A stretch of DNA of 64,000 bases from the IMG/VR virus record IMGVR_UViG_3300025141_000026. One strand, given 5' to 3'. Made by a program: the position numbers and the translations under genes. The notes beneath the pieces are model-generated. The model saw only the letters and a program-made list of their open reading frames with translations, did no database searches and was not told the origin of the DNA. Every line of letters starts with the position of its first letter. Position 1 is the stretch's first letter. Positions 7,949-29,723 of the stretch are shown here, in pieces. Source of the DNA: a virus.

Positions 7949-8968
7949 TTAGTTAATACCAGCTAAAATTTTCATCCTATCCGAATGTGGATTGGAATCC
8001 TTTTCTATCCTTCTAGGTAATGTTGTTGACCTTCTCTCAACTGCCTCGCTAAGTGATTTTGGCGCAACCTTTTTATTTGGTTGTGCTCCCACCGTGCTTT
8101 GAAGTGCCTCGAAAATTGTCTTTGTCTCTTCCACAGAACCAGACTTCATGATTGCCTCGACAATTTTATTCTTTTGTCGCTCATTCAACGAGTCGTCAAC
8201 CAAGACTTGGTTTGTGTAGAGTAGTTTTGCATTCTGAAGATTTACCTCCGTCAAGGTGTTCTTCATTTGCAAAAGCATTTCTTTGTATTTATCGGCTTTC
8301 TCTTCGAGTCGATAAATTTCTTTCTCAGCGCCCTCTAATACCTTTAGAGCTTCGCTGAGATCTTCATCTTCTTTTTCCTCTTCTTCTAGTTCTTTAACGT
8401 CAAGAGGTTCTTCAACTTTAGTTTGAAGAATATCAATTTCATGCTCAACGCTTGAATCTGGTCTTTGTAGCCAGCCAGCCTTTGTAGGCTCCATATCAAG
8501 TGTGAGTTCTTCTAAGATGTCTACAAGTTCTTCTTCAGTGATTTGAATGTCTTCTTCGAGTTCCTCTTCATCAAGACTCTCTGCTAGTGGAGAGTCTAGT
8601 GCGGGAATTCCCCCCCCCGCCTCACTATCTGTCGCCTGCATTTGTTGTGCCAATTGATCGAAGTCAATTTCAACTTCTTCTTCGTCGTCTGGGCATGGGC
8701 ACAGTTTATCACCTTCTGTGGAAGCAAGTGGCATCTGTTGTGCCAGATCCTCGCTGGACTCCAAGCCTCCGTCCAGACCAAGATCACCTTCATCATCGAG
8801 TAGCTCTTCATCTTCAAGGGGGTCCTCTTCGTCTTGTTCCAAAAGTGCTTCAACAGCGTTTTTAATTTCTGATTGGTACTTTTCAATAACGGATTGTTCC
8901 GCATTTTGTAGCGCAGCTTCTTTGAGTGCTTCTGCATCAACAATTGCTTGTTCTAACATATTAGACAT
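7949..8968 (-). CDS. Prohead core/scaffold protein (gp22-like)
   Basis: Acidic coiled-coil protein immediately upstream of the capsid gene; C-terminal RMKILAGI; many L/I-x-E sites. Confidence 0.8.
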   Translation of the reverse strand: MSNMLEQAIVDAEALKEAALQNAEQSVIEKYQSEIKNAVEALLEQDEEDPLEDEELLDDEGDLGLDGGLESSEDLAQQMPLASTEGDKLCPCPDDEEEVEIDFDQLAQQMQATDSEAGGGIPALDSPLAESLDEEELEEDIQITEEELVDILEELTLDMEPTKAGWLQRPDSSVEHEIDILQTKVEEPLDVKELEEEEKEDEDLSEALKVLEGAEKEIYRLEEKADKYKEMLLQMKNTLTEVNLQNAKLLYTNQVLVDDSLNERQKNKIVEAIMKSGSVEETKTIFEALQSTVGAQPNKKVAPKSLSEAVERRSTTLPRRIEKDSNPHSDRMKILAGIN

Positions 8969-25057: not shown

Positions 25058-25066
25058 GTAATTAGT
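25058..25066 (-). promoter_or_regulatory. Putative late promoter motif ACTAATTAC (lysis cassette and leader array)
   Basis: Copy of the recurrent motif. Confidence 0.5.
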
Positions 25067-28000
25067 TACTGAGATACAAAAGCGAATCCATCATTTTTCT
25101 CAATTTCAATAGTGGTATCAGCAATGTCCTTCAGGCTATCGACATGCGAGATCAACAAAACTATCTGATAGTAGTTCTTGACCATATCCACAATACGAAC
25201 AAAACCTTCCATGTTTTCCGCATCAAGGGCTGTTGCTGGTTCGTCAAGAATAAATAGGTTGGATTTAGGCAATGACGACACAGAAAGCAGCGCTAGTCTG
25301 ATTGCCATTGCAGCAATTGTTTTCTCAGCGCCAGATCCCATCTCAATAGGTCGTGGGTCATGCTTGGGGTGCTTGATAAAGATGTCAAGCTTGTTGCCAT
25401 CATTTTCAAAGAAGACCTCAAAGTCAACAACGTTAGCCAACACCTTTGAAATCTCATCATTGATGATTGGCAACCTCTTCTTAATAATATCATACGAGAT
25501 GCCATTAGAGTGCATGCAACGCATAAACAAATCATAAGCAGTATACTTGGTTCTTAGATCCTCCAAGTTTGCCTGTTGCTCAACCAAGTTGTTGAGCCGT
25601 TGTTCCAAAGAGCCATGCTGCTTATAAAGTTCTAAGATTTCGTTTCTGCATTCTTCGTATTCTTGTTTTTCTCTCTCCATTCTTTCTGTAGCCGCTCTTT
25701 TCTCTCCTGAAAGAATTTCCAGATTTTCAATAACTTCTTTGTTCTCTTCATATTCATTGATCTTTGCCTCCAGTTCTTTTATTTCAACTTCTAAATTTGT
25801 TTTTTTGGACTTGCTCTTCTCTATGTCAAGCTCAATACGAGCCATCTCATTTGAGAGATTGTTCTTCTTCTCGACAACCTTGTTGTATTTGGCTAAATGG
25901 CTGTCCACAATATCTGGCTGTAGGGTGCCGATATCCTTTTCTATTTTCTCCTTGTTGTTGTTGAGGAGGGTAATCTTCTTCTTGCTTTCTGGAAGAAGTT
26001 TTTTATGTGTATAAGCGTCTCGTATAAACCTACAATGAGAAAACTCAGAACCACAAGGGACTTCTGATAAGAGTGCGACTTTCTTTTCAATTCCTTCTTG
26101 CTCCCTTTCCTCTATACTTATTTCTGAAATGATATTATCGAGATCTTTTCCCTTGTCATTAATAAGTTCTTTTTTAGTTTCTAGTTCATCAATATCAAAG
26201 TTATCCAAAAACTGAATTATCTTTTGGTAATGGTCTAGCTTTTGTTTGTGCTGATCCTTCTTTTCGGATATGTCAATGTCAGCGATTTGTAGTTCGTTGG
26301 ACTTGATTTCTTTATCCTCCACGACCTTTACAATATTTATGATGCTTGCTGGCATTGACTCAATCTTTTTTGTCAAGGCAGTAATTTCATTGCGTATCTC
26401 TTCAATCTGGACTTTGTATGCGGCACAGGCTTTCTTTTGTTCTTCAGTTCTTCCAGCATTGTCGTTTAACAATAGTTGAGCAGCCTTGATGTCCTCATCA
26501 TAGTCTTTGCCCTCTAGTGTTTTCAGAGCACCTCGAAGATCTGATGCATCATCTTTTGCTAGCTTGAACTTCTTTTCAAAGATATCCAAATCCAAAAACT
26601 TTGCTAAGATTTCTTTACGTTTTGTAGATCCTTCATTGATGTATGAAAGAGATCCCATCTGAGATGACATAGAGGTCATTAGGAAGTCATCCATTGTCCC
26701 CAAGACCTTTTTGATATTTTTGTCGGTCTCATTTCTTGTGGTGCCATTTAGAACATCTATATCTTGTGTAATCAAGTTTTGTTTTGTAAACTCAGTCTTT
26801 GTTTTAGCTTCAAGCGTCTCTTCGCCCTTCAGCTTTTTGAGATACTTCTCTGACTCTCTATGGATGCTGTACGTGTCATCCCCAACAGATATCTCAACAT
26901 CTGCGGAACACATTTGCTTGTTCTGGTTGATTATGTTGAGATTCTTTCTCTCGTTTTTAGATGTGGAATTATACATCCCATAAAGCAGTCCGTCGATGAT
27001 GGAAGACTTACCAGAGAAGTTCTTGCCAAAAACTCCCACGACCCCATTCAACTTGGTGAAATCAATGGAGTTTCCTTCTCCATAATTGAACAGGTTATCC
27101 CAAGAAAACTTTCTTAGATTCCAATTTACGTTCCTTGTGATCTCCTCTTCTTCTTCAGCAACGGCATTGTATTTTCTATTAAGCTCATAAACCTTTTCTA
27201 AGGTCTGATCGTTAGCTTCATAGTCTTTGAGATACTCATCAATGAACTCTTCCTGAACAGCTATGTCACGAAGGTCCTCTTTTTTCAAGGTGTGGGTCAT
27301 ATGGTCAACGCTAGAGTTGCCACTCGCACGATTCAAGAATGTGATTGACTCTGGCTTGAACTTGGATTTAGCAACATCAATAGCCTTTCTCATCACATCG
27401 AGAGGAAGGTTATTGTTTGTAGCCAAACGAAGTCTTGAGCCGTTTGGAAATGATAGAGATCTAGGGATCTTGCCCTTCGGTGTCAAGTCGATTGTAATAA
27501 ACGGCTTAGGATTCAAAAGCACATGGTGCTTGCATGTATAGTTATCCTTGTCCTTTACATCCCATACCAGATATCCCTTGTCGTTCGTTTCTCCAAAGTT
27601 TTGCTGGACTGTTGATCCCGCATAGCGGATCTTACCTTTTGCATCGAGGGTTTGGTTGGTCTTGTGGATATCCCCAAGGAAAGCATAATCAAAATTATTA
27701 AAAATAGAAATGTCATAGTCGCCATAGTCCATTGTCCATCCGATGTCGGTTTGGCAACCGCTGATGGAACCGTGATAGAGAGCAATATTTACTCTATCAT
27801 AATTAGTTGGCTCGACCCAATTATCGGTATCAAACACAGACAAAACATTCAAAGCAAAATTGTCATTTATGACAGTTTCGCCTGACTCTTTAAGTAAATG
27901 TATGCTTGGGTGCGCCAGCGCTTCCACGATTGGGGTGATGGCATCTTGACGACTACTGTTCTTTAGATTGCCATCGTGGTTTCCCAAGATAATATAAGTT

Positions 28001-28215
28001 GGCGCAATGTCACCTAGACTGCGAAAGAAGTCGGTTGCCATCTCCACAAACTCTGGTGAGATCTGGGTCTTGGTGTGGGCAATGTCGCCACAATGGATAA
28101 TACAATCCACCTTTTGTTTTCTCAGCTTTTTGTACATCTGTTTGAATACTTCTTTATATTCAAAGTGATATTTCAGATTGCGGATATGGGTATCCGCTAT
28201 ATGAGCAAATCTCAT
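25066..28215 (-). CDS. Fused Mre11/SbcD nuclease - Rad50/SbcC ATPase (gp47-gp46 fusion)
   Basis: ADTH, GD, GNHD and GDIH metallophosphoesterase motifs; Walker A GKNFSGKS; long coiled coil; SGAEK signature; ILDEP; ISH. Confidence 0.92.
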   Translation of the reverse strand: MRFAHIADTHIRNLKYHFEYKEVFKQMYKKLRKQKVDCIIHCGDIAHTKTQISPEFVEMATDFFRSLGDIAPTYIILGNHDGNLKNSSRQDAITPIVEALAHPSIHLLKESGETVINDNFALNVLSVFDTDNWVEPTNYDRVNIALYHGSISGCQTDIGWTMDYGDYDISIFNNFDYAFLGDIHKTNQTLDAKGKIRYAGSTVQQNFGETNDKGYLVWDVKDKDNYTCKHHVLLNPKPFITIDLTPKGKIPRSLSFPNGSRLRLATNNNLPLDVMRKAIDVAKSKFKPESITFLNRASGNSSVDHMTHTLKKEDLRDIAVQEEFIDEYLKDYEANDQTLEKVYELNRKYNAVAEEEEEITRNVNWNLRKFSWDNLFNYGEGNSIDFTKLNGVVGVFGKNFSGKSSIIDGLLYGMYNSTSKNERKNLNIINQNKQMCSADVEISVGDDTYSIHRESEKYLKKLKGEETLEAKTKTEFTKQNLITQDIDVLNGTTRNETDKNIKKVLGTMDDFLMTSMSSQMGSLSYINEGSTKRKEILAKFLDLDIFEKKFKLAKDDASDLRGALKTLEGKDYDEDIKAAQLLLNDNAGRTEEQKKACAAYKVQIEEIRNEITALTKKIESMPASIINIVKVVEDKEIKSNELQIADIDISEKKDQHKQKLDHYQKIIQFLDNFDIDELETKKELINDKGKDLDNIISEISIEEREQEGIEKKVALLSEVPCGSEFSHCRFIRDAYTHKKLLPESKKKITLLNNNKEKIEKDIGTLQPDIVDSHLAKYNKVVEKKNNLSNEMARIELDIEKSKSKKTNLEVEIKELEAKINEYEENKEVIENLEILSGEKRAATERMEREKQEYEECRNEILELYKQHGSLEQRLNNLVEQQANLEDLRTKYTAYDLFMRCMHSNGISYDIIKKRLPIINDEISKVLANVVDFEVFFENDGNKLDIFIKHPKHDPRPIEMGSGAEKTIAAMAIRLALLSVSSLPKSNLFILDEPATALDAENMEGFVRIVDMVKNYYQIVLLISHVDSLKDIADTTIEIEKNDGFAFVSQ

Positions 28216-28223
28216 CGTTCTCC

Positions 28224-28610
28224 TTATAGTCTGATGTTCTTTTGAAGGTGGTCCCCTGCTTTACGCATGTCAGTCTCCAACTTGTGTAAATAAGCGGAAA
28301 TCAAAACAAAGCGAGCGACAAATTCAATTTCGTCCCCCGGCAACACATCACCAAATTTTTTATCTTCAGCGTTCTTGTGTTCGTAAATGTAGTTGAATAG
28401 ATATTGCTCTGTCCTTATGCCGACTTGCGCTCCCAGTTTATCATGGGGCGAGTGACAAGGTTTGCACTGTGCGACCCAGACGTTTGATTTAGTTCGCATA
28501 ATTGATGCGTCTTGTGCCTGAACAGTGATGGGTATAAACAGTAGTAGAATAAAACTACTTTTTAGTTTTCTTAGATTTCTTCTTTTTAGGAGGCTTTGCA
28601 GCATTGTCAT
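28224..28610 (-). CDS. Exported c-type cytochrome-like protein
   Basis: Signal-peptide-like FILLLFIPITVQA-Q, CKPCH heme-binding motif, C-terminal L..DEIEFVARFV helix. Exact start uncertain. Confidence 0.55.
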   Translation of the reverse strand: MTMLQSLLKRRNLRKLKSSFILLLFIPITVQAQDASIMRTKSNVWVAQCKPCHSPHDKLGAQVGIRTEQYLFNYIYEHKNAEDKKFGDVLPGDEIEFVARFVLISAYLHKLETDMRKAGDHLQKNIRL

Positions 28611-28782
28611 CCCTTATCTTAACCACGAATGGTTTCAAATTAGTAGTATCTGAAAGTTTCCTGACCTTTGCTTCCGAATGGACTGCTGACAGTTCGCTTC
28701 TCTTTCGATCTGCTTCTTCAAATGAAGAAAACTTAGCAACAGTGGTCCATGGTCTACTTACAGTTTCATTCTCTTTTGACAT
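28555..28782 (-). CDS. Small basic hypothetical protein
   Basis: 75-aa ORF with GAGGT RBS; Lys-rich tail. Confidence 0.6.
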   Translation of the reverse strand: MSKENETVSRPWTTVAKFSSFEEADRKRSELSAVHSEAKVRKLSDTTNLKPFVVKIRDDNAAKPPKKKKSKKTKK

Positions 28783-28809
28783 TCTAACCTCTCTTTTTTA
28801 TATTGTCAA
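28781..28809 (-). promoter_or_regulatory. Sigma70-type promoter
   Basis: TTGACA (28809-28804), 17-nt spacer, TAGAAT (28786-28781). Confidence 0.55.
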
Positions 28810-28812
28810 GAA

Positions 28813-29373
28813 TTATTTTTCGTCTTTTGCGTCTAGGTATGCGGCGACAGCCATTTGTTGCCTCTTCTTTTTGCCTTTACCTTTGAATTGCGGTGCCTTA
28901 GATTTGTAGAAGTCATCCACATATGCACCTGCTCCGTCAGATGGCTTTAGTTTTTCTCCAAGCCCCAACTGAGCTTCTTCCTCTTCTGGTCACTGTTCTT
29001 GTAAATCGTCATCTTCGTTTACTGTTCTTGGGGAATCTAAAGTTTCACCGCTAGTAACATCTTTGACAACAGACATAAGAAACTCAACTGCTTTATCGTG
29101 CATGTCTTGCGGATCTTTTGAAACAGGTTCTCCAGTACCAGCATATGTTTGAGCTACATCTGTTGGCGTAGTCATTTCTTGGTATGCTGCACCAATAGCT
29201 GCTTCAAGATTTTGAATAGTCTCTACGTCAATACTTTCGTCCAATTGTTCGTCTTGTTGTTCTAACTCTTCTTGGACTTCTTCTCCAAACATCTCACCAG
29301 CTTCTTCGTTTGTAAGAACAACTTGAAGCTCTTCTCTAATGATTTGTTTAAGTCTTGCTTTTGTCATTTTCAT
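28813..29373 (-). CDS. Putative selenoprotein B (127 aa + UGA + 58 aa), probable internal head protein
   Basis: In-frame TGA at 28990-28992. The frame continues as PEEEEAQLGLGEKLKPSDGAGAYVDDFYKSKAPQFKGKGKKKRQQMAVAAYLDAKDEK to TAA at 28813; a SECIS-like hairpin follows the TGA. Confidence 0.6.
28960..28976 (-). promoter_or_regulatory. SECIS-like hairpin 2
   Basis: AAGCUC-AGUU-GGGGCUU starting 13 nt after the in-frame UGA; one bulged G. Confidence 0.55.
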
Positions 29374-29723
29374 TTATTTGATCTCTCCTTGTCGTCGTCA
29401 TCTTGCTTGGCATGCATATGCTCATTTACAAGAGTCTGCTCGATGTCTGATTCTGTCAAGTTTCTGATGATTGTATCACCAAATTTCATATCATAAACGC
29501 CGATATCGCCATTCTCATTGAGAGAGTGCCAAAGAACTTTTCCAACGGCGTTTTTTTCGTTGATTCCGTATCTTTCCTGTAAAGCTGAACTCAGCTTTCC
29601 TTCCTTCATTCATTTGTGTTTGAGGTCGTCAAGTTCCTTTTCAAGTTCTTTCTTTCTTTTCTTCTCAGCTTTTGTGAGTTCTTCTGCGATAATCTCTTTT
29701 AATCGTTGTTTTGTAATTTTCAT
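29370..29723 (-). CDS. Putative selenoprotein A (37 aa + UGA + 79 aa), probable internal head protein
   Basis: ATG at 29723 with RBS gives MKITKQRLKEIIAEELTKAEKKRKKELEKELDDLKHK, then TGA (29610-29612) in frame with MKEGKL...EHMH; a SECIS-like hairpin follows. Confidence 0.6.
29581..29598 (-). promoter_or_regulatory. SECIS-like hairpin 1
   Basis: Perfect 7-bp stem AAAGCUG-AGUU-CAGCUUU starting 11 nt after the UGA. Confidence 0.65.

What the first reader, a model, noticed from the sequence alone, without database searches (positions are those of the whole stretch)
28813..28992. Orphan 58-codon protein-like domain reachable mainly by UGA read-through
Seen: in this tightly packed genome the ~180-nt gap after the annotated stop at 28990 is an open in-frame segment encoding YVDDFYKSKAPQFKGKGKKKRQQMAVAAYLDAK, with no ATG near its 5' end. 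The context U-P-E-E-E-E mirrors C-P-D-D-E-E-E in the scaffold protein. I recall a similar DF.KS.APQFKGK..R..MA.AAY module in T4-like phage proteins (unverified). Inference: a basic, possibly DNA-binding module added conditionally.
Basis: partly seen in the sequence, partly recalled or inferred. Interest (0 to 1): 0.7.

Follow-up and report, generated by a model that had tools for sequence, protein, structure and literature searches.

The report
Portable UGA-recoding cassette in phage gene
In a marine T4-like phage, a small gene ends at a UGA stop followed by a conserved RNA hairpin and an in-frame basic protein module. The same stop-plus-hairpin junction recurs in 18 related viral sequences, so some ribosomes very probably read through the stop (possibly inserting selenocysteine) to make a longer protein.

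Summary
On the minus strand, a 127-codon ORF (29373-28993) ends E-Q-UGA (28992-28990). The frame stays open for 58 codons: a 12-codon acidic linker, then a 46-residue basic module.

This is not an error or a one-off nonsense mutation. The junction recurs in 18 distinct viral or metagenomic DNA contexts, this window included. The stop is always TGA, always in frame, and followed by C in 15 of 18.

- The module is under strong purifying selection (pN/pS 0.10 at saturated pS 0.81); the linker's pN/pS is 0.36.
- At least four loci have no in-frame ATG, GTG or TTG ahead of the module core.
- The linker is found only with the TGA. About 50 homologues fuse body and module directly and lack it.
- It holds a 5-6 bp hairpin, 11 or 14 nt after the UGA, with an invariant loop G then U/G. 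Rare codons maintain it (CGG, GGG).
- That meets three of four published bacterial SECIS criteria; stability falls short in this window.

An earlier scan note calls the adjacent gene a selenoprotein. I confirmed its conserved UGA, a stronger co-varying hairpin, and Cys in distant relatives.

Verdict: programmed UGA recoding appends the module. Selenocysteine insertion about 0.5, near-cognate read-through about 0.3, own start about 0.1.

The parts
28993..29373 (-). Upstream ORF, the 'body' (127 codons). It starts with the leader MKMTKARLKQIIREE (29373-29329) and ends ...DDLQEQ. This is the short isoform if translation stops at the UGA.
   Evidence: 871 homologues. The leader is shared with tandem paralogues.
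28993..28998 (-). Codons -2 and -1 (GAA CAG = Glu-Gln). They are invariant as amino acids but vary synonymously: GAA 8 / GAG 10 and CAA 10 / CAG 8.
28990..28992 (-). The recoded stop codon UGA, followed by C (28989).
   Evidence: TGA in 18 of 18 distinct contexts; +4 is C in 15, G in 2, A in 1. Other TGA stops in the window are followed by A or G.
28954..28989 (-). Acidic linker of 12 codons (PEEEEAQLGLGE). It is present only in genes that carry the UGA and ends in L-G-E.
   Evidence: pN/pS is 0.36 in this frame against 1.2-1.8 in the other frames.
28960..28976 (-). SECIS-like hairpin AAGCUC-AGUUG-GGGCUU. The loop is 28970-28966, the stem starts 14 nt after the UGA, and the computed energy is -5.2 kcal/mol.
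   Evidence: It is the only consensus structure from RNAalifold. 98.8% of cells are paired. The loop G is invariant and rare codons are kept.
28816..28953 (-). Basic C-terminal module of 46 residues (KLKPSDGAGAYVDDF..APQFKGK..MAVAAYLDAKDEK). It is mostly predicted disordered, with a terminal helix.
   Evidence: pN/pS 0.10 across 13 split loci. Present in cyanomyoviruses and in 245 IMG/VR stretches. The AlphaFold2 model has low confidence.
28813..28815 (-). TAA stop of the extended isoform.
28966..28968 (-). In-frame TTG, a candidate independent start. It lies inside the hairpin loop and is absent from most relatives.
   Evidence: TTG at this codon in only 5 of 16 loci. L127, L132, L142 and L154 have no canonical in-frame start before the module core.
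28918..28920 (-). In-frame GTG (Val of YVDDF), a second candidate start. It is GTT or GTA in several relatives.
28781..28809 (-). Sigma-70-like promoter (TTGACA-17-TAGAAT, 11 of 12 matches) just after the module's stop, serving the next gene (28782-28555). The module therefore closes its transcription unit.
29370..29723 (-). Neighbouring gene with its own in-frame UGA (29612-29610) and a 7-bp hairpin AAAGCUG-AGUU-CAGCUUU (29598-29581, loop G and U at +23/+24). It is a probable selenoprotein and sets the context for the mechanism proposed here.
   Evidence: 19 loci, compensatory A-U to G-C changes; Cys in 5 distant relatives; -7.7 to -9.0 kcal/mol.

Best explanation
The stretch is the 3' part of one gene whose UGA is programmatically recoded. 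A portable cassette joins a protein 'body' to a C-terminal module. The cassette consists of hydrophobic-x-Glu-Gln, then UGA (usually followed by C), then an 11- or 14-nt purine-rich spacer, then a small hairpin whose loop carries an invariant G followed by U or G.

Most ribosomes stop at the UGA and release the 127-residue body. A fraction decode the UGA and add the acidic linker and the 46-residue basic module.

The decoder I think most likely is the host's SelB with Sec-tRNA(Sec), recruited by the hairpin acting as a minimal bacterial SECIS. The same route is probably used by the gene next door. Under this view selenocysteine would serve mainly as a translational valve that sets the ratio of short to long isoform, not as a catalytic residue, because many homologues fuse body and module directly with neither linker nor Cys.

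What is shown:
- the UGA is conserved;
- the frame relation is conserved;
- the hairpin and its loop are conserved;
- coding selection acts downstream of the UGA;
- the linker is linked strictly to the UGA.

What is inferred:
- which tRNA decodes the UGA;
- the isoform ratio;
- that the proteins are head-internal cargo with a capsid-targeting-like leader;
- that hydrophobic-x-Glu sites flank the linker and are cut by the phage's T4-type prohead protease.
For: **The junction is conserved.**
- There are 18 distinct DNA contexts, all with TGA where TAA, TAG, TGG and TGY were also allowed by the search pattern. C follows at +4 in 15 of 18.
- The junction joins three different upstream architectures to three different downstream modules.

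**The downstream frame is translated.**
- Module: pN/pS 0.10 at pS 0.81. Linker: 0.36. The same bases read in the other two frames give values above 1.
- L127, L132, L142 and L154 have no in-frame ATG, GTG or TTG before the module core.
- The linker exists only with the UGA. A search of 5.8 billion proteins using the junction region found only two continuous calls containing the linker. Both carry W at the TGA position, which I read as table-4 gene calls.

**There is an RNA element.**
- RNAalifold predicts a single hairpin, and 98.8% of cells are paired.
- The loop is R-G-[U/G]-Y-N in 18 of 18.
- The codons forming it are always CAG or CGG, GGG or GAG, and GCY. In this genome CGG is 1.7% of Arg codons, GGG 14.5% of Gly and CAG 23.6% of Gln.
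- Linker pS is about half that of the module.

**Fit to the published bacterial SECIS model (PMC13188914).**
- Loop of 3-9 nt, stem of 4-16 bp, G then G/U in the first loop positions, and 16-37 nt spacing are all met.
- The stem begins 11 nt after the UGA in 14 of 18, as in E. coli fdhF (PMC8659212).

**The adjacent gene points the same way.**
- It keeps a UGA in 19 loci, followed by a 7-bp hairpin with compensatory changes.
- Five distant relatives have Cys at that position.
- The two hairpins share AAGCU(G/C)AGUU in different codon frames.
Against: - No homologue has Cys, or any other sense codon, at this UGA.
- The site sits in an acidic low-complexity linker with no redox motif, and direct fusions show the residue is dispensable.
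- The hairpin is short. Only one-sided pair changes are seen, no double compensatory ones, and the covariation measures are not above shuffles.
- In the window the hairpin energy is -5.2 kcal/mol (-6.9 for +4 to +45). This misses the -7.5 threshold of the SECIS model, which only 4 of 16 hairpins reach.
- The spacing differs by 3 nt between lineages: 11 against 14 nt.
- A covariance model built from this cassette does not pick up the neighbour's hairpin.
- No tRNA-Sec or SelB was found in five related phage contigs, but these are only 10-66% complete.
- The host is unknown, so its Sec capacity is unknown.
- UGA followed by C is also exactly the context expected for plain leaky termination (PMC7026636).
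- The loci are related, so counts of 18 are not 18 independent events.
Confidence: 0.5

Rival explanations
1. Plain leaky termination (Q-beta A1 type). Host tRNA-Trp, or another near-cognate tRNA, occasionally reads the UGA because the context is weak: Glu at -2, C at +4. The hairpin is irrelevant or acts only as a roadblock. The outcome is the same two isoforms, but without selenium.
For: - The stop is always UGA, the leakiest stop codon, with C at +4 in 15 of 18 (PMC7026636).
- Ordinary TGA stops in the window are followed by A or G, never C.
- The -2 and -1 residues are conserved as amino acids, not as nucleotides. From my own recollection of the E. coli literature, this fits nascent-peptide effects on RF2.
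- There is no Cys homologue and no redox context.
- The hairpin is weak, and no Sec machinery was found in related contigs.
Against: - It does not explain why a specific loop G-U and the rare CGG and GGG codons are kept across lineages with saturated synonymous divergence.
- It does not explain why the linker occurs only together with the UGA.
- It does not explain why the geometry fits the bacterial SECIS model, next to a gene that shows a Sec/Cys pair.
Confidence: 0.3
2. The downstream segment is a separate small gene. It is started on its own at the TTG (28968) or GTG (28920), or by ribosomes that terminate at the UGA and reinitiate nearby.
For: - The window has an in-frame TTG preceded by a purine-rich GAGGAAGAAG stretch, and also an in-frame GTG.
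- In many other viral proteins the module stands at the N-terminus as M-P-L-K-P-S-D-G....
- SynMITS9220M01_157 starts only six residues before the DFYKS motif.
Against: - No start codon holds a conserved position. TTG at this codon occurs in only 5 of 16 loci.
- L127, L132, L142 and L154 have no in-frame ATG, GTG or TTG before the module core.
- The frame relative to the upstream ORF is kept in 18 of 18.
- The linker codons are under coding selection in that frame.
- The TTG lies inside the conserved hairpin loop.
Confidence: 0.1
3. The segment has no function. It is a nonsense mutation, an assembly or sequencing error, or a decaying remnant of a formerly fused gene.
For: About 50 homologues are uninterrupted fusions of body and module, so a fused ancestor is plausible.
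Against: - The TGA is identical in 18 distinct contexts from many samples.
- The module after the stop evolves at pN/pS 0.10 with pS 0.81.
- The split genes carry an extra conserved linker that the fused genes lack, which is the opposite of decay.
Confidence: 0.04
4. General reassignment of TGA, either through genetic code 4 or 25 or through a phage suppressor tRNA that switches the code late in infection.
For: Database gene calls translate this TGA as W (P0016, P0102). They do the same for the neighbour gene's TGA.
Against: - Those W residues are table-4 gene calls. The same proteins also read W at terminal TGAs, for example the tail K-W-K from AAATGAAAATAA.
- In the window, 12 of 51 ORFs end in TGA, mostly in ATGA stop-start overlaps. 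ORFs of 3155, 2569 and 1295 codons contain no TGA.
- The window contains no tRNA genes.
- Related phage contigs encode only tRNA-Met, Arg, Asn, Leu and Ile.
Confidence: 0.03

Closest known systems
Bacterial SECIS-directed selenocysteine insertion (prototype E. coli fdhF; bSECIS consensus of Zhang and Gladyshev as summarised in PMC13188914)
   Same: - An in-frame UGA conserved among homologues.
- A stem-loop inside the coding sequence directly downstream.
- A small apical loop with G then U/G in the first positions.
- 16 or 19 nt between the UGA and the loop.
- The stem starts 11 nt after the UGA in 14 of 18 loci, as in fdhF (PMC8659212).
- C follows the UGA.
- Incomplete efficiency would yield both terminated and extended products (PMC7026636).
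   Different: - There is no Sec/Cys pair.
- The UGA lies in a dispensable acidic linker between modules, not in a redox or metal site.
- The stem is only 5-6 bp, and the energy is mostly weaker than the -7.5 kcal/mol criterion.
- The whole unit behaves as a portable junction between varied bodies and modules.
- It is in a phage. My searches of the paper library found no reported selenoprotein in a virus of bacteria.
Programmed UGA read-through of the Q-beta coat gene giving minor protein A1
   Same: - A phage structural-type gene.
- UGA read by a fraction of ribosomes.
- Two products that share an N-terminus, the longer one carrying an added C-terminal domain (PMC8310308).
   Different: - Q-beta is an RNA phage whose read-through relies on near-cognate tRNA-Trp and needs no conserved downstream hairpin.
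- Here the phage is a large dsDNA myovirus.
- Here the stop comes with a conserved structured linker that is absent whenever the stop is absent.
Fixed-ratio C-terminal extension by recoding in dsDNA phages (T7 gene 10A/10B, lambda G/GT frameshifts)
   Same: The logic is the same: a recoding signal at a domain boundary yields a minor, C-terminally extended isoform of a virion-related protein (PMC8310308 mentions T7 and lambda frameshifting).
   Different: Those cases use -1 frameshifting on slippery sites. Here the frame is kept and a stop codon is decoded.
T4 internal proteins with a capsid targeting sequence, cut by the gp21 prohead protease
   Same: - A short shared N-terminal leader ends in I-x-E, and it heads many unrelated small proteins.
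- The phage encodes a Peptidase_S77 protease (116 bits) and a gp23-type capsid protein.
- The junctions have hydrophobic-x-Glu on both sides of the linker.
   Different: - There is no sequence homology to T4 IPI-III.
- Packaging and cleavage are untested.
- The cleavage specificity is taken from my knowledge of T4, not shown for this phage.

Membership tests
Bacterial selenoprotein gene with in-ORF SECIS | In-frame UGA conserved across homologues, with the reading frame continuing under selection | tested here: met
   TGA in 18 of 18 distinct contexts. Downstream pN/pS is 0.10 for the module and 0.36 for the linker.
Bacterial selenoprotein gene with in-ORF SECIS | Apical loop of 3-9 nt on an upper stem of 4-16 bp immediately downstream of the UGA (PMC13188914) | tested here: met
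   Loop of 5 nt (3 nt in some folds) on a 5-7 bp stem in all loci.
Bacterial selenoprotein gene with in-ORF SECIS | G in one of the first two loop positions, usually followed by G or U | tested here: met
   The loops are GGUCU, AGUUG, AGUCU, AGGCU and AGUUA. G is at position 2 in 18 of 18; the next base is U in 17 and G in 1.
Bacterial selenoprotein gene with in-ORF SECIS | 16-37 nt between the UGA and the apical loop | tested here: met
   16 nt in 14 contexts and 19 nt in 4, the window included. This is at the lower edge of the allowed range.
Bacterial selenoprotein gene with in-ORF SECIS | Minimum free energy of -7.5 kcal/mol or lower | tested here: not met
   In the window the hairpin is -5.2 and the +4 to +45 region is -6.9 kcal/mol. 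Only 4 of 16 hairpins reach -7.5. The neighbour gene's hairpins all do, at -7.7 to -9.0.
Bacterial selenoprotein gene with in-ORF SECIS | Cys-containing homologues aligned to the UGA (a Sec/Cys pair) | tested here: not met
   No homologue carries the linker with a sense codon. The only continuous calls read W, which I attribute to table-4 gene calling. The neighbour gene, by contrast, has Cys in 5 distant relatives.
Bacterial selenoprotein gene with in-ORF SECIS | Sec machinery (selA, selB, selC, selD) available in the host or the phage | not testable with these tools
   The host is unknown and no whole genome is held for the window. No tRNA-Sec above cut-off and no SelB domain were found in five related contigs that are 10-66% complete.
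Programmed stop-codon read-through (Q-beta A1 type) | A leaky stop context (UGA followed by C) that is conserved | tested here: met
   C at +4 in 15 of 18. The other TGA stops in the window are followed by A or G.
Programmed stop-codon read-through (Q-beta A1 type) | The downstream frame is coding and has no independent start | tested here: inconclusive
   Coding is shown. L127, L132, L142 and L154 have no canonical start, but the window itself has a TTG and a GTG in frame.
Programmed stop-codon read-through (Q-beta A1 type) | Extended protein detected, with Trp at the stop position | not testable with these tools
   No proteomic or ribosome-profiling data were available.
T4-type internal head protein (capsid targeting sequence cargo) | A short N-terminal leader ending in hydrophobic-x-Glu, in a phage with a gp21-type protease | tested here: met
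   The leader MKMTKARLKQIIREE is shared by paralogues. Peptidase_S77 scores 116 bits against a cut-off of 27, and Gp23 scores 241 bits.
T4-type internal head protein (capsid targeting sequence cargo) | Packaged in the head and cleaved at the leader | not testable with these tools
   This needs virion proteomics.
Pfam DUF6321 | A match to PF19846 above its threshold | tested here: not met
   The window's module has no Pfam hit. In Sf-CH8 the module lies at about residues 281-312, upstream of the DUF6321 domain at 330-400.

The most novel reading that the evidence does not exclude
A lineage of marine T4-like phages uses the host selenocysteine machinery in two ways. One is for a true selenoprotein, the neighbouring gene. 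The other is a portable translational valve: a minimal UGA-plus-SECIS cassette placed between protein modules sets the ratio of short to extended isoforms of head-internal cargo proteins. The Sec-containing linker would then be trimmed away at flanking hydrophobic-x-Glu sites by the prohead protease. This would be both the first selenoprotein system in a virus of bacteria and a non-catalytic, regulatory use of Sec insertion.
Probability: 0.35. Interest if true: 0.9.

Novelty: new variant of a known kind. Interest (0 to 1): 0.8.

Why it matters
Stop-codon recoding is textbook for RNA phage Q-beta and for cellular selenoproteins. A conserved, modular UGA-recoding junction in large dsDNA phages is not something I found described.

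- **Annotation.** If the cassette works as proposed, hundreds of marine viral genes are mis-annotated as a truncated gene plus an orphan gap. Some are instead mistranslated under table 4.
- **Biology.** The phage would be tuning the dose of a basic, possibly DNA-associated, module on its cargo proteins.
- **Selenium link.** If decoding depends on SelB, phage protein composition would be tied to host selenium status. The cassette would then also be one of the smallest natural SECIS elements, which is useful for engineering.
- **Testability.** The claim can be tested directly with a reporter assay and with marine metaproteomes.

Tried and rejected
- **Pfam and PHROGs** on the body, the module and the fusion gave no significant family.
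- **blastn against the phage collection** found no match for the locus.
I could not fetch the DNA of the ENA proteins that end in ...EQ, or of P0016 and P0102, so their 'W' could not be checked at the DNA level. I first took that W as evidence for TGG. I dropped this after seeing W also at terminal TGAs (P0102) and K-W-K tails that match ATGAAAATAA.
- **No whole genome is held for the window**.
- **Rfam** found nothing relevant in the region.
- **Folding the window sequence alone** is not distinguishable from shuffles (z = -0.84). Only the alignment reveals the hairpin.
- **The covariance model of the cassette** finds only itself in the window, not the neighbour gene's hairpin.
- **tRNA-Sec and SelB searches** in related contigs were negative; the sub-threshold hits are tRNA-Leu(UAA).
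- **A co-occurrence test** used phages whose neighbour-gene homologue has Cys. Only 2 distinct loci turned up, neither with the cassette, which is too few to conclude anything.
- **The genome-contig scan** hit only the module, in MAG contigs of mixed taxonomy, so it gives no host inference.
- **The AlphaFold2 model** of the read-through protein was poor (pLDDT 54.8), so I made no fold search.
- **Frameshifting, an intron or an intein** were not pursued, because the frame is continuous.
Full report
**1. What is in the sequence**

All genes in this part of the window lie on the minus strand. A 127-codon ORF (29373-28993) ends GAA-CAG-TGA, with the TGA at 28992-28990. The same frame then continues for 58 codons to a TAA at 28815-28813. 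The extension has two parts:

- a 12-codon acidic linker, PEEEEAQLGLGE (28989-28954);

There is an in-frame TTG at 28968 and a GTG at 28920, but no early ATG.

**2. TGA is an ordinary stop elsewhere in this genome**

- Twelve of 51 ORFs end in TGA, mostly in ATGA stop-start overlaps.
- ORFs of 3155, 2569, 1295, 1145 and 1049 codons contain no TGA.
- The window has no tRNA gene.

Whatever happens at 28990 is therefore site-specific and not a change of genetic code.

**3. What kind of phage this is**

The window encodes:

- a tail sheath, a gp23-type major capsid protein (Pfam Gp23, 241 bits), a portal and a large terminase;
- a Peptidase_S77 prohead protease (116 bits) and a baseplate wedge protein;
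- a primase, a RuvC-like resolvase and an SbcCD fusion.

It is a large marine T4-like myovirus. The identical 127-residue protein sits on a contig of 163,563 bases.

**4. The module is real and widespread**

- tblastn finds it inside proteins of the cyanomyoviruses Sf-CH5/CH8, P-TIM68 and SynMITS9220M01.
- In Sf-CH8 it lies upstream of the DUF6321 domain and is not that domain. In SynMITS9220M01 it forms an N-terminus.
- IMG/VR holds 245 stretches that encode it. These occur at N-termini (M-P-L-K-P-S-D-G...), at C-termini, or directly behind a 16-residue leader.

**5. Homologues of the body**

A search with the read-through translation found 871 relatives. They fall into classes:

- About 50 of the best 120 are uninterrupted fusions of body, often a further 60-residue middle domain, and the module. 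They are joined directly, as in ...EMEE-KLKPS.
- About 40 end abruptly in hydrophobic-x-E-Q.

For every member of the second class whose DNA I could reach, the E-Q is followed by TGA, an in-frame linker of 11 or 12 codons, and then a module. The search pattern also allowed TAA, TAG, TGG and TGY at that codon. Even so, 18 distinct DNA contexts were found and all are TGA. The next base is C in 15, G in 2 and A in 1.

The same junction connects three kinds of body to three kinds of module:

- the basic KLKPS module;
- a second basic module ending ...YATATKIAKEKK (L135, L154);
- a hydrophobic one (L145).

The junction itself is therefore the conserved unit.

**6. The downstream frame is translated**

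Across 13 split loci the module has pS 0.81 and pN 0.081, giving pN/pS 0.10. The same bases read in the other two frames give 1.5 and 2.8. The linker gives 0.36 against 1.2-1.8, and its third codon positions vary most. This rules out a decaying remnant.

**7. Independent initiation is unlikely**

- No in-frame start occupies a conserved position.
- The window's TTG codon is TCT, GCT or TTA in most relatives.
- L127, L132, L142 and L154 have no in-frame ATG, GTG or TTG before the conserved core of the module.
- No promoter-like site precedes the module. A strong one follows its stop and serves the next gene.

**8. The linker exists only with the UGA**

A second search of the 5.8-billion-protein set was restricted to the junction region. 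Only two continuous proteins contained the linker, P0016 and P0102, and both have W at the TGA position.

These W residues are not evidence for TGG:

- P0102 also has W where relatives have their terminal TGA.
- Continuous calls of the neighbour gene carry tails such as K-W-K. That is exactly AAATGAAAATAA, the stop overlapping the next gene's ATGAAAATA, read under table 4.

The likely explanation is that metagenome gene callers chose table 4 on short contigs. Direct fusions never contain the linker. The linker therefore behaves as part of a recoding signal and not as a protein spacer.

**9. The RNA element**

- RNAalifold on 16 junctions predicts a single structure: a 5-bp stem A-G-C-Y-C / G-R-G-Y-U with a 5-nt loop.
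- 98.8% of cells are paired. The changes are one-sided only (U-G, C-G, U-A), there is no double compensatory change, and the covariation measures are not above shuffles.
- Codon choice gives stronger evidence. The three codons that build the stem and loop are always GCY, CAG or CGG, and GGG or GAG. In this genome CGG is 1.7% of Arg codons, GGG 14.5% of Gly and CAG 23.6% of Gln.
- The amino acids vary there (Q/R, L/S/A, G/E), yet the loop G is invariant and is followed by U in 17 and G in 1 of 18.
- Synonymous divergence in the linker is about half that in the module.

**10. Comparison with the bacterial SECIS model**

The published consensus (PMC13188914) asks for four things:

| Criterion | Result here |
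|---|---|
| Loop of 3-9 nt on a 4-16 bp stem | Met |
| G then G/U in the first loop positions | Met |
| 16-37 nt between the UGA and the loop | Met (16 or 19 nt) |
| Energy of -7.5 kcal/mol or lower | Not met in the window (-5.2; -6.9 for the region); met by 4 of 16 hairpins |

In 14 of 18 contexts the stem starts 11 nt after the UGA. That is the distance described for the minimal E. coli fdhF element, whose conserved loop bases are G23 and U24 (PMC8659212). In the window the distance is 14 nt.

**11. The neighbouring gene**

- Its UGA (29612-29610) is kept in 19 distinct loci.
- It is followed by a 7-bp hairpin with loop AGUU, with the loop G and U at +23/+24.
- L140 and L144 show a compensatory A-U to G-C change made by a Lys-to-Arg change plus a synonymous Ala change.
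- The energies are -7.7 to -9.0 kcal/mol.
- An exhaustive profile-free search found five distant relatives with Cys in H-x-C at exactly that position.

I therefore agree that the neighbour is a credible selenoprotein gene. The two hairpins share AAGCU(G/C)AGUU in different codon frames. However, a covariance model of my cassette does not detect the neighbour's hairpin.

**12. Weighing the decoders**

Both Sec insertion and near-cognate read-through predict a conserved UGA, a weak termination context and two isoforms.

For Sec:
- the conserved loop G-U;
- the spacing from the UGA;
- the strict link between linker and UGA;
- a Sec-type gene next door.

Against Sec:
- no Sec/Cys pair;
- a position in a dispensable acidic linker;
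- a weak stem;
- a 3-nt difference in spacing between lineages;
- no tRNA-Sec or SelB in five related but incomplete phage contigs, which encode only tRNA-Met, Arg, Asn, Leu and Ile;
- an unknown host.

My estimates are about 0.5 for SECIS-type decoding and 0.3 for plain read-through, so about 0.8 that the UGA is programmatically decoded. I give 0.1 to an independent start and the remainder to non-function or code change.

**13. What the proteins may do (inference)**

- The body starts with a leader, MK(I/M)TKxRLKxIIxEE. The 37-residue N-part of the neighbour gene and many tandem paralogues in related contigs share it.
- The leader ends in I-x-E.
- Both sides of the linker also show hydrophobic-x-E: L-Q-E before the Q-UGA, and L-G-E before the module.
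- From my knowledge of T4, the gp21 protease cuts after Glu in L/I-x-E, and the capsid targeting sequences of internal proteins end that way.
- This phage has a gp21-type protease.

I therefore propose that these are head-internal cargo proteins. The basic module, or the whole extension, would be supplied in sub-stoichiometric amounts through the UGA, and the linker may be excised. The AlphaFold2 model is poor (pLDDT 54.8). It shows only helices in the body, disorder across residues 109-166 and a terminal helix, so it neither supports nor contradicts DNA binding.

**14. Literature**

In the library I found:

- viral selenoproteins reported only for poxviruses, and Q-beta as the phage read-through example (PMC8310308);
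- marine selenoproteome surveys that report few or no viral sequences among selenoprotein families (PMC9402790, PMC1088965);
- no paper on a phage selenoprotein.

This is absence within one library, not proof of novelty.

**15. Limits**

- The 18 contexts are related to one another.
- No expression data exist.

Noticed in passing
window 29370-29723 (-): The neighbouring gene is a 37-codon leader peptide, then a UGA (29612-29610), then 79 codons. A 7-bp hairpin with an AGUU loop follows the UGA, which is kept in 19 loci. There is a compensatory A-U to G-C change. Five distant relatives have Cys (H-x-C) at the UGA position. It is a probable phage selenoprotein.
   Followed up: partly
database proteins P0016, P0102, P0212-P0300: Public metagenome gene calls translate these phage TGAs as W. 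They also run through terminal TGAs, giving tails such as K-W-K. Table 4 was evidently chosen on short contigs. Such W residues can be mistaken for TGG.
   Followed up: partly
window 7949-8968 (-), motif near 8695: The acidic scaffold-like protein just upstream of the capsid gene carries L-C-P-C-P-(D/E)n. The motif is conserved in relatives down to about 45% identity. One relative (L284) has a stop codon inside the acidic run. The motif's role and any link to the U-P-E-E-E context are unknown.
   Followed up: partly
L135:1759-1900, L154:1651-1800, L145:1860-2000: The same E-Q-UGA-linker cassette precedes other C-terminal modules. One is a second basic module ending ...YATATKIAKEKK, which is also found directly fused in P0012 and P0077. 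Another is a hydrophobic, membrane-like segment.
   Followed up: partly
L104, L118, L122, L094; window 29329-29373 and 29679-29723: Arrays of tandem genes all begin with the leader MK(I/L)TKxxLKxIIKEE and then have unrelated bodies. This looks like a cargo-tagging sequence.
   Followed up: no
L014:1459-1647, L015: A minimal gene consisting only of a leader (MKNSKLRALVKEIIQE) fused directly to the basic module.
   Followed up: no
window 28781-28809 (-): A near-consensus sigma-70-type promoter (TTGACA-17-TAGAAT) lies directly after the module's stop. It precedes a 75-codon gene with a lysine-rich tail (28782-28555).
   Followed up: no
window 28224-28610 (-): A 128-codon ORF with a signal-like N-terminus and a CxxCH motif. 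It has a weak Pfam cytochrome c hit (E = 0.034, below threshold).
   Followed up: no
window 25066-28215 (-): A single 1049-codon ORF combines SbcD-like (residues 1-385) and SbcC-like (residues 181-1047) regions.
   Followed up: no
L025:1471-1645: A 57-codon module-bearing segment starts right after a TGA followed by C and has no ATG before the module core. There is another stop one codon upstream, so how it is expressed is unclear.
   Followed up: no
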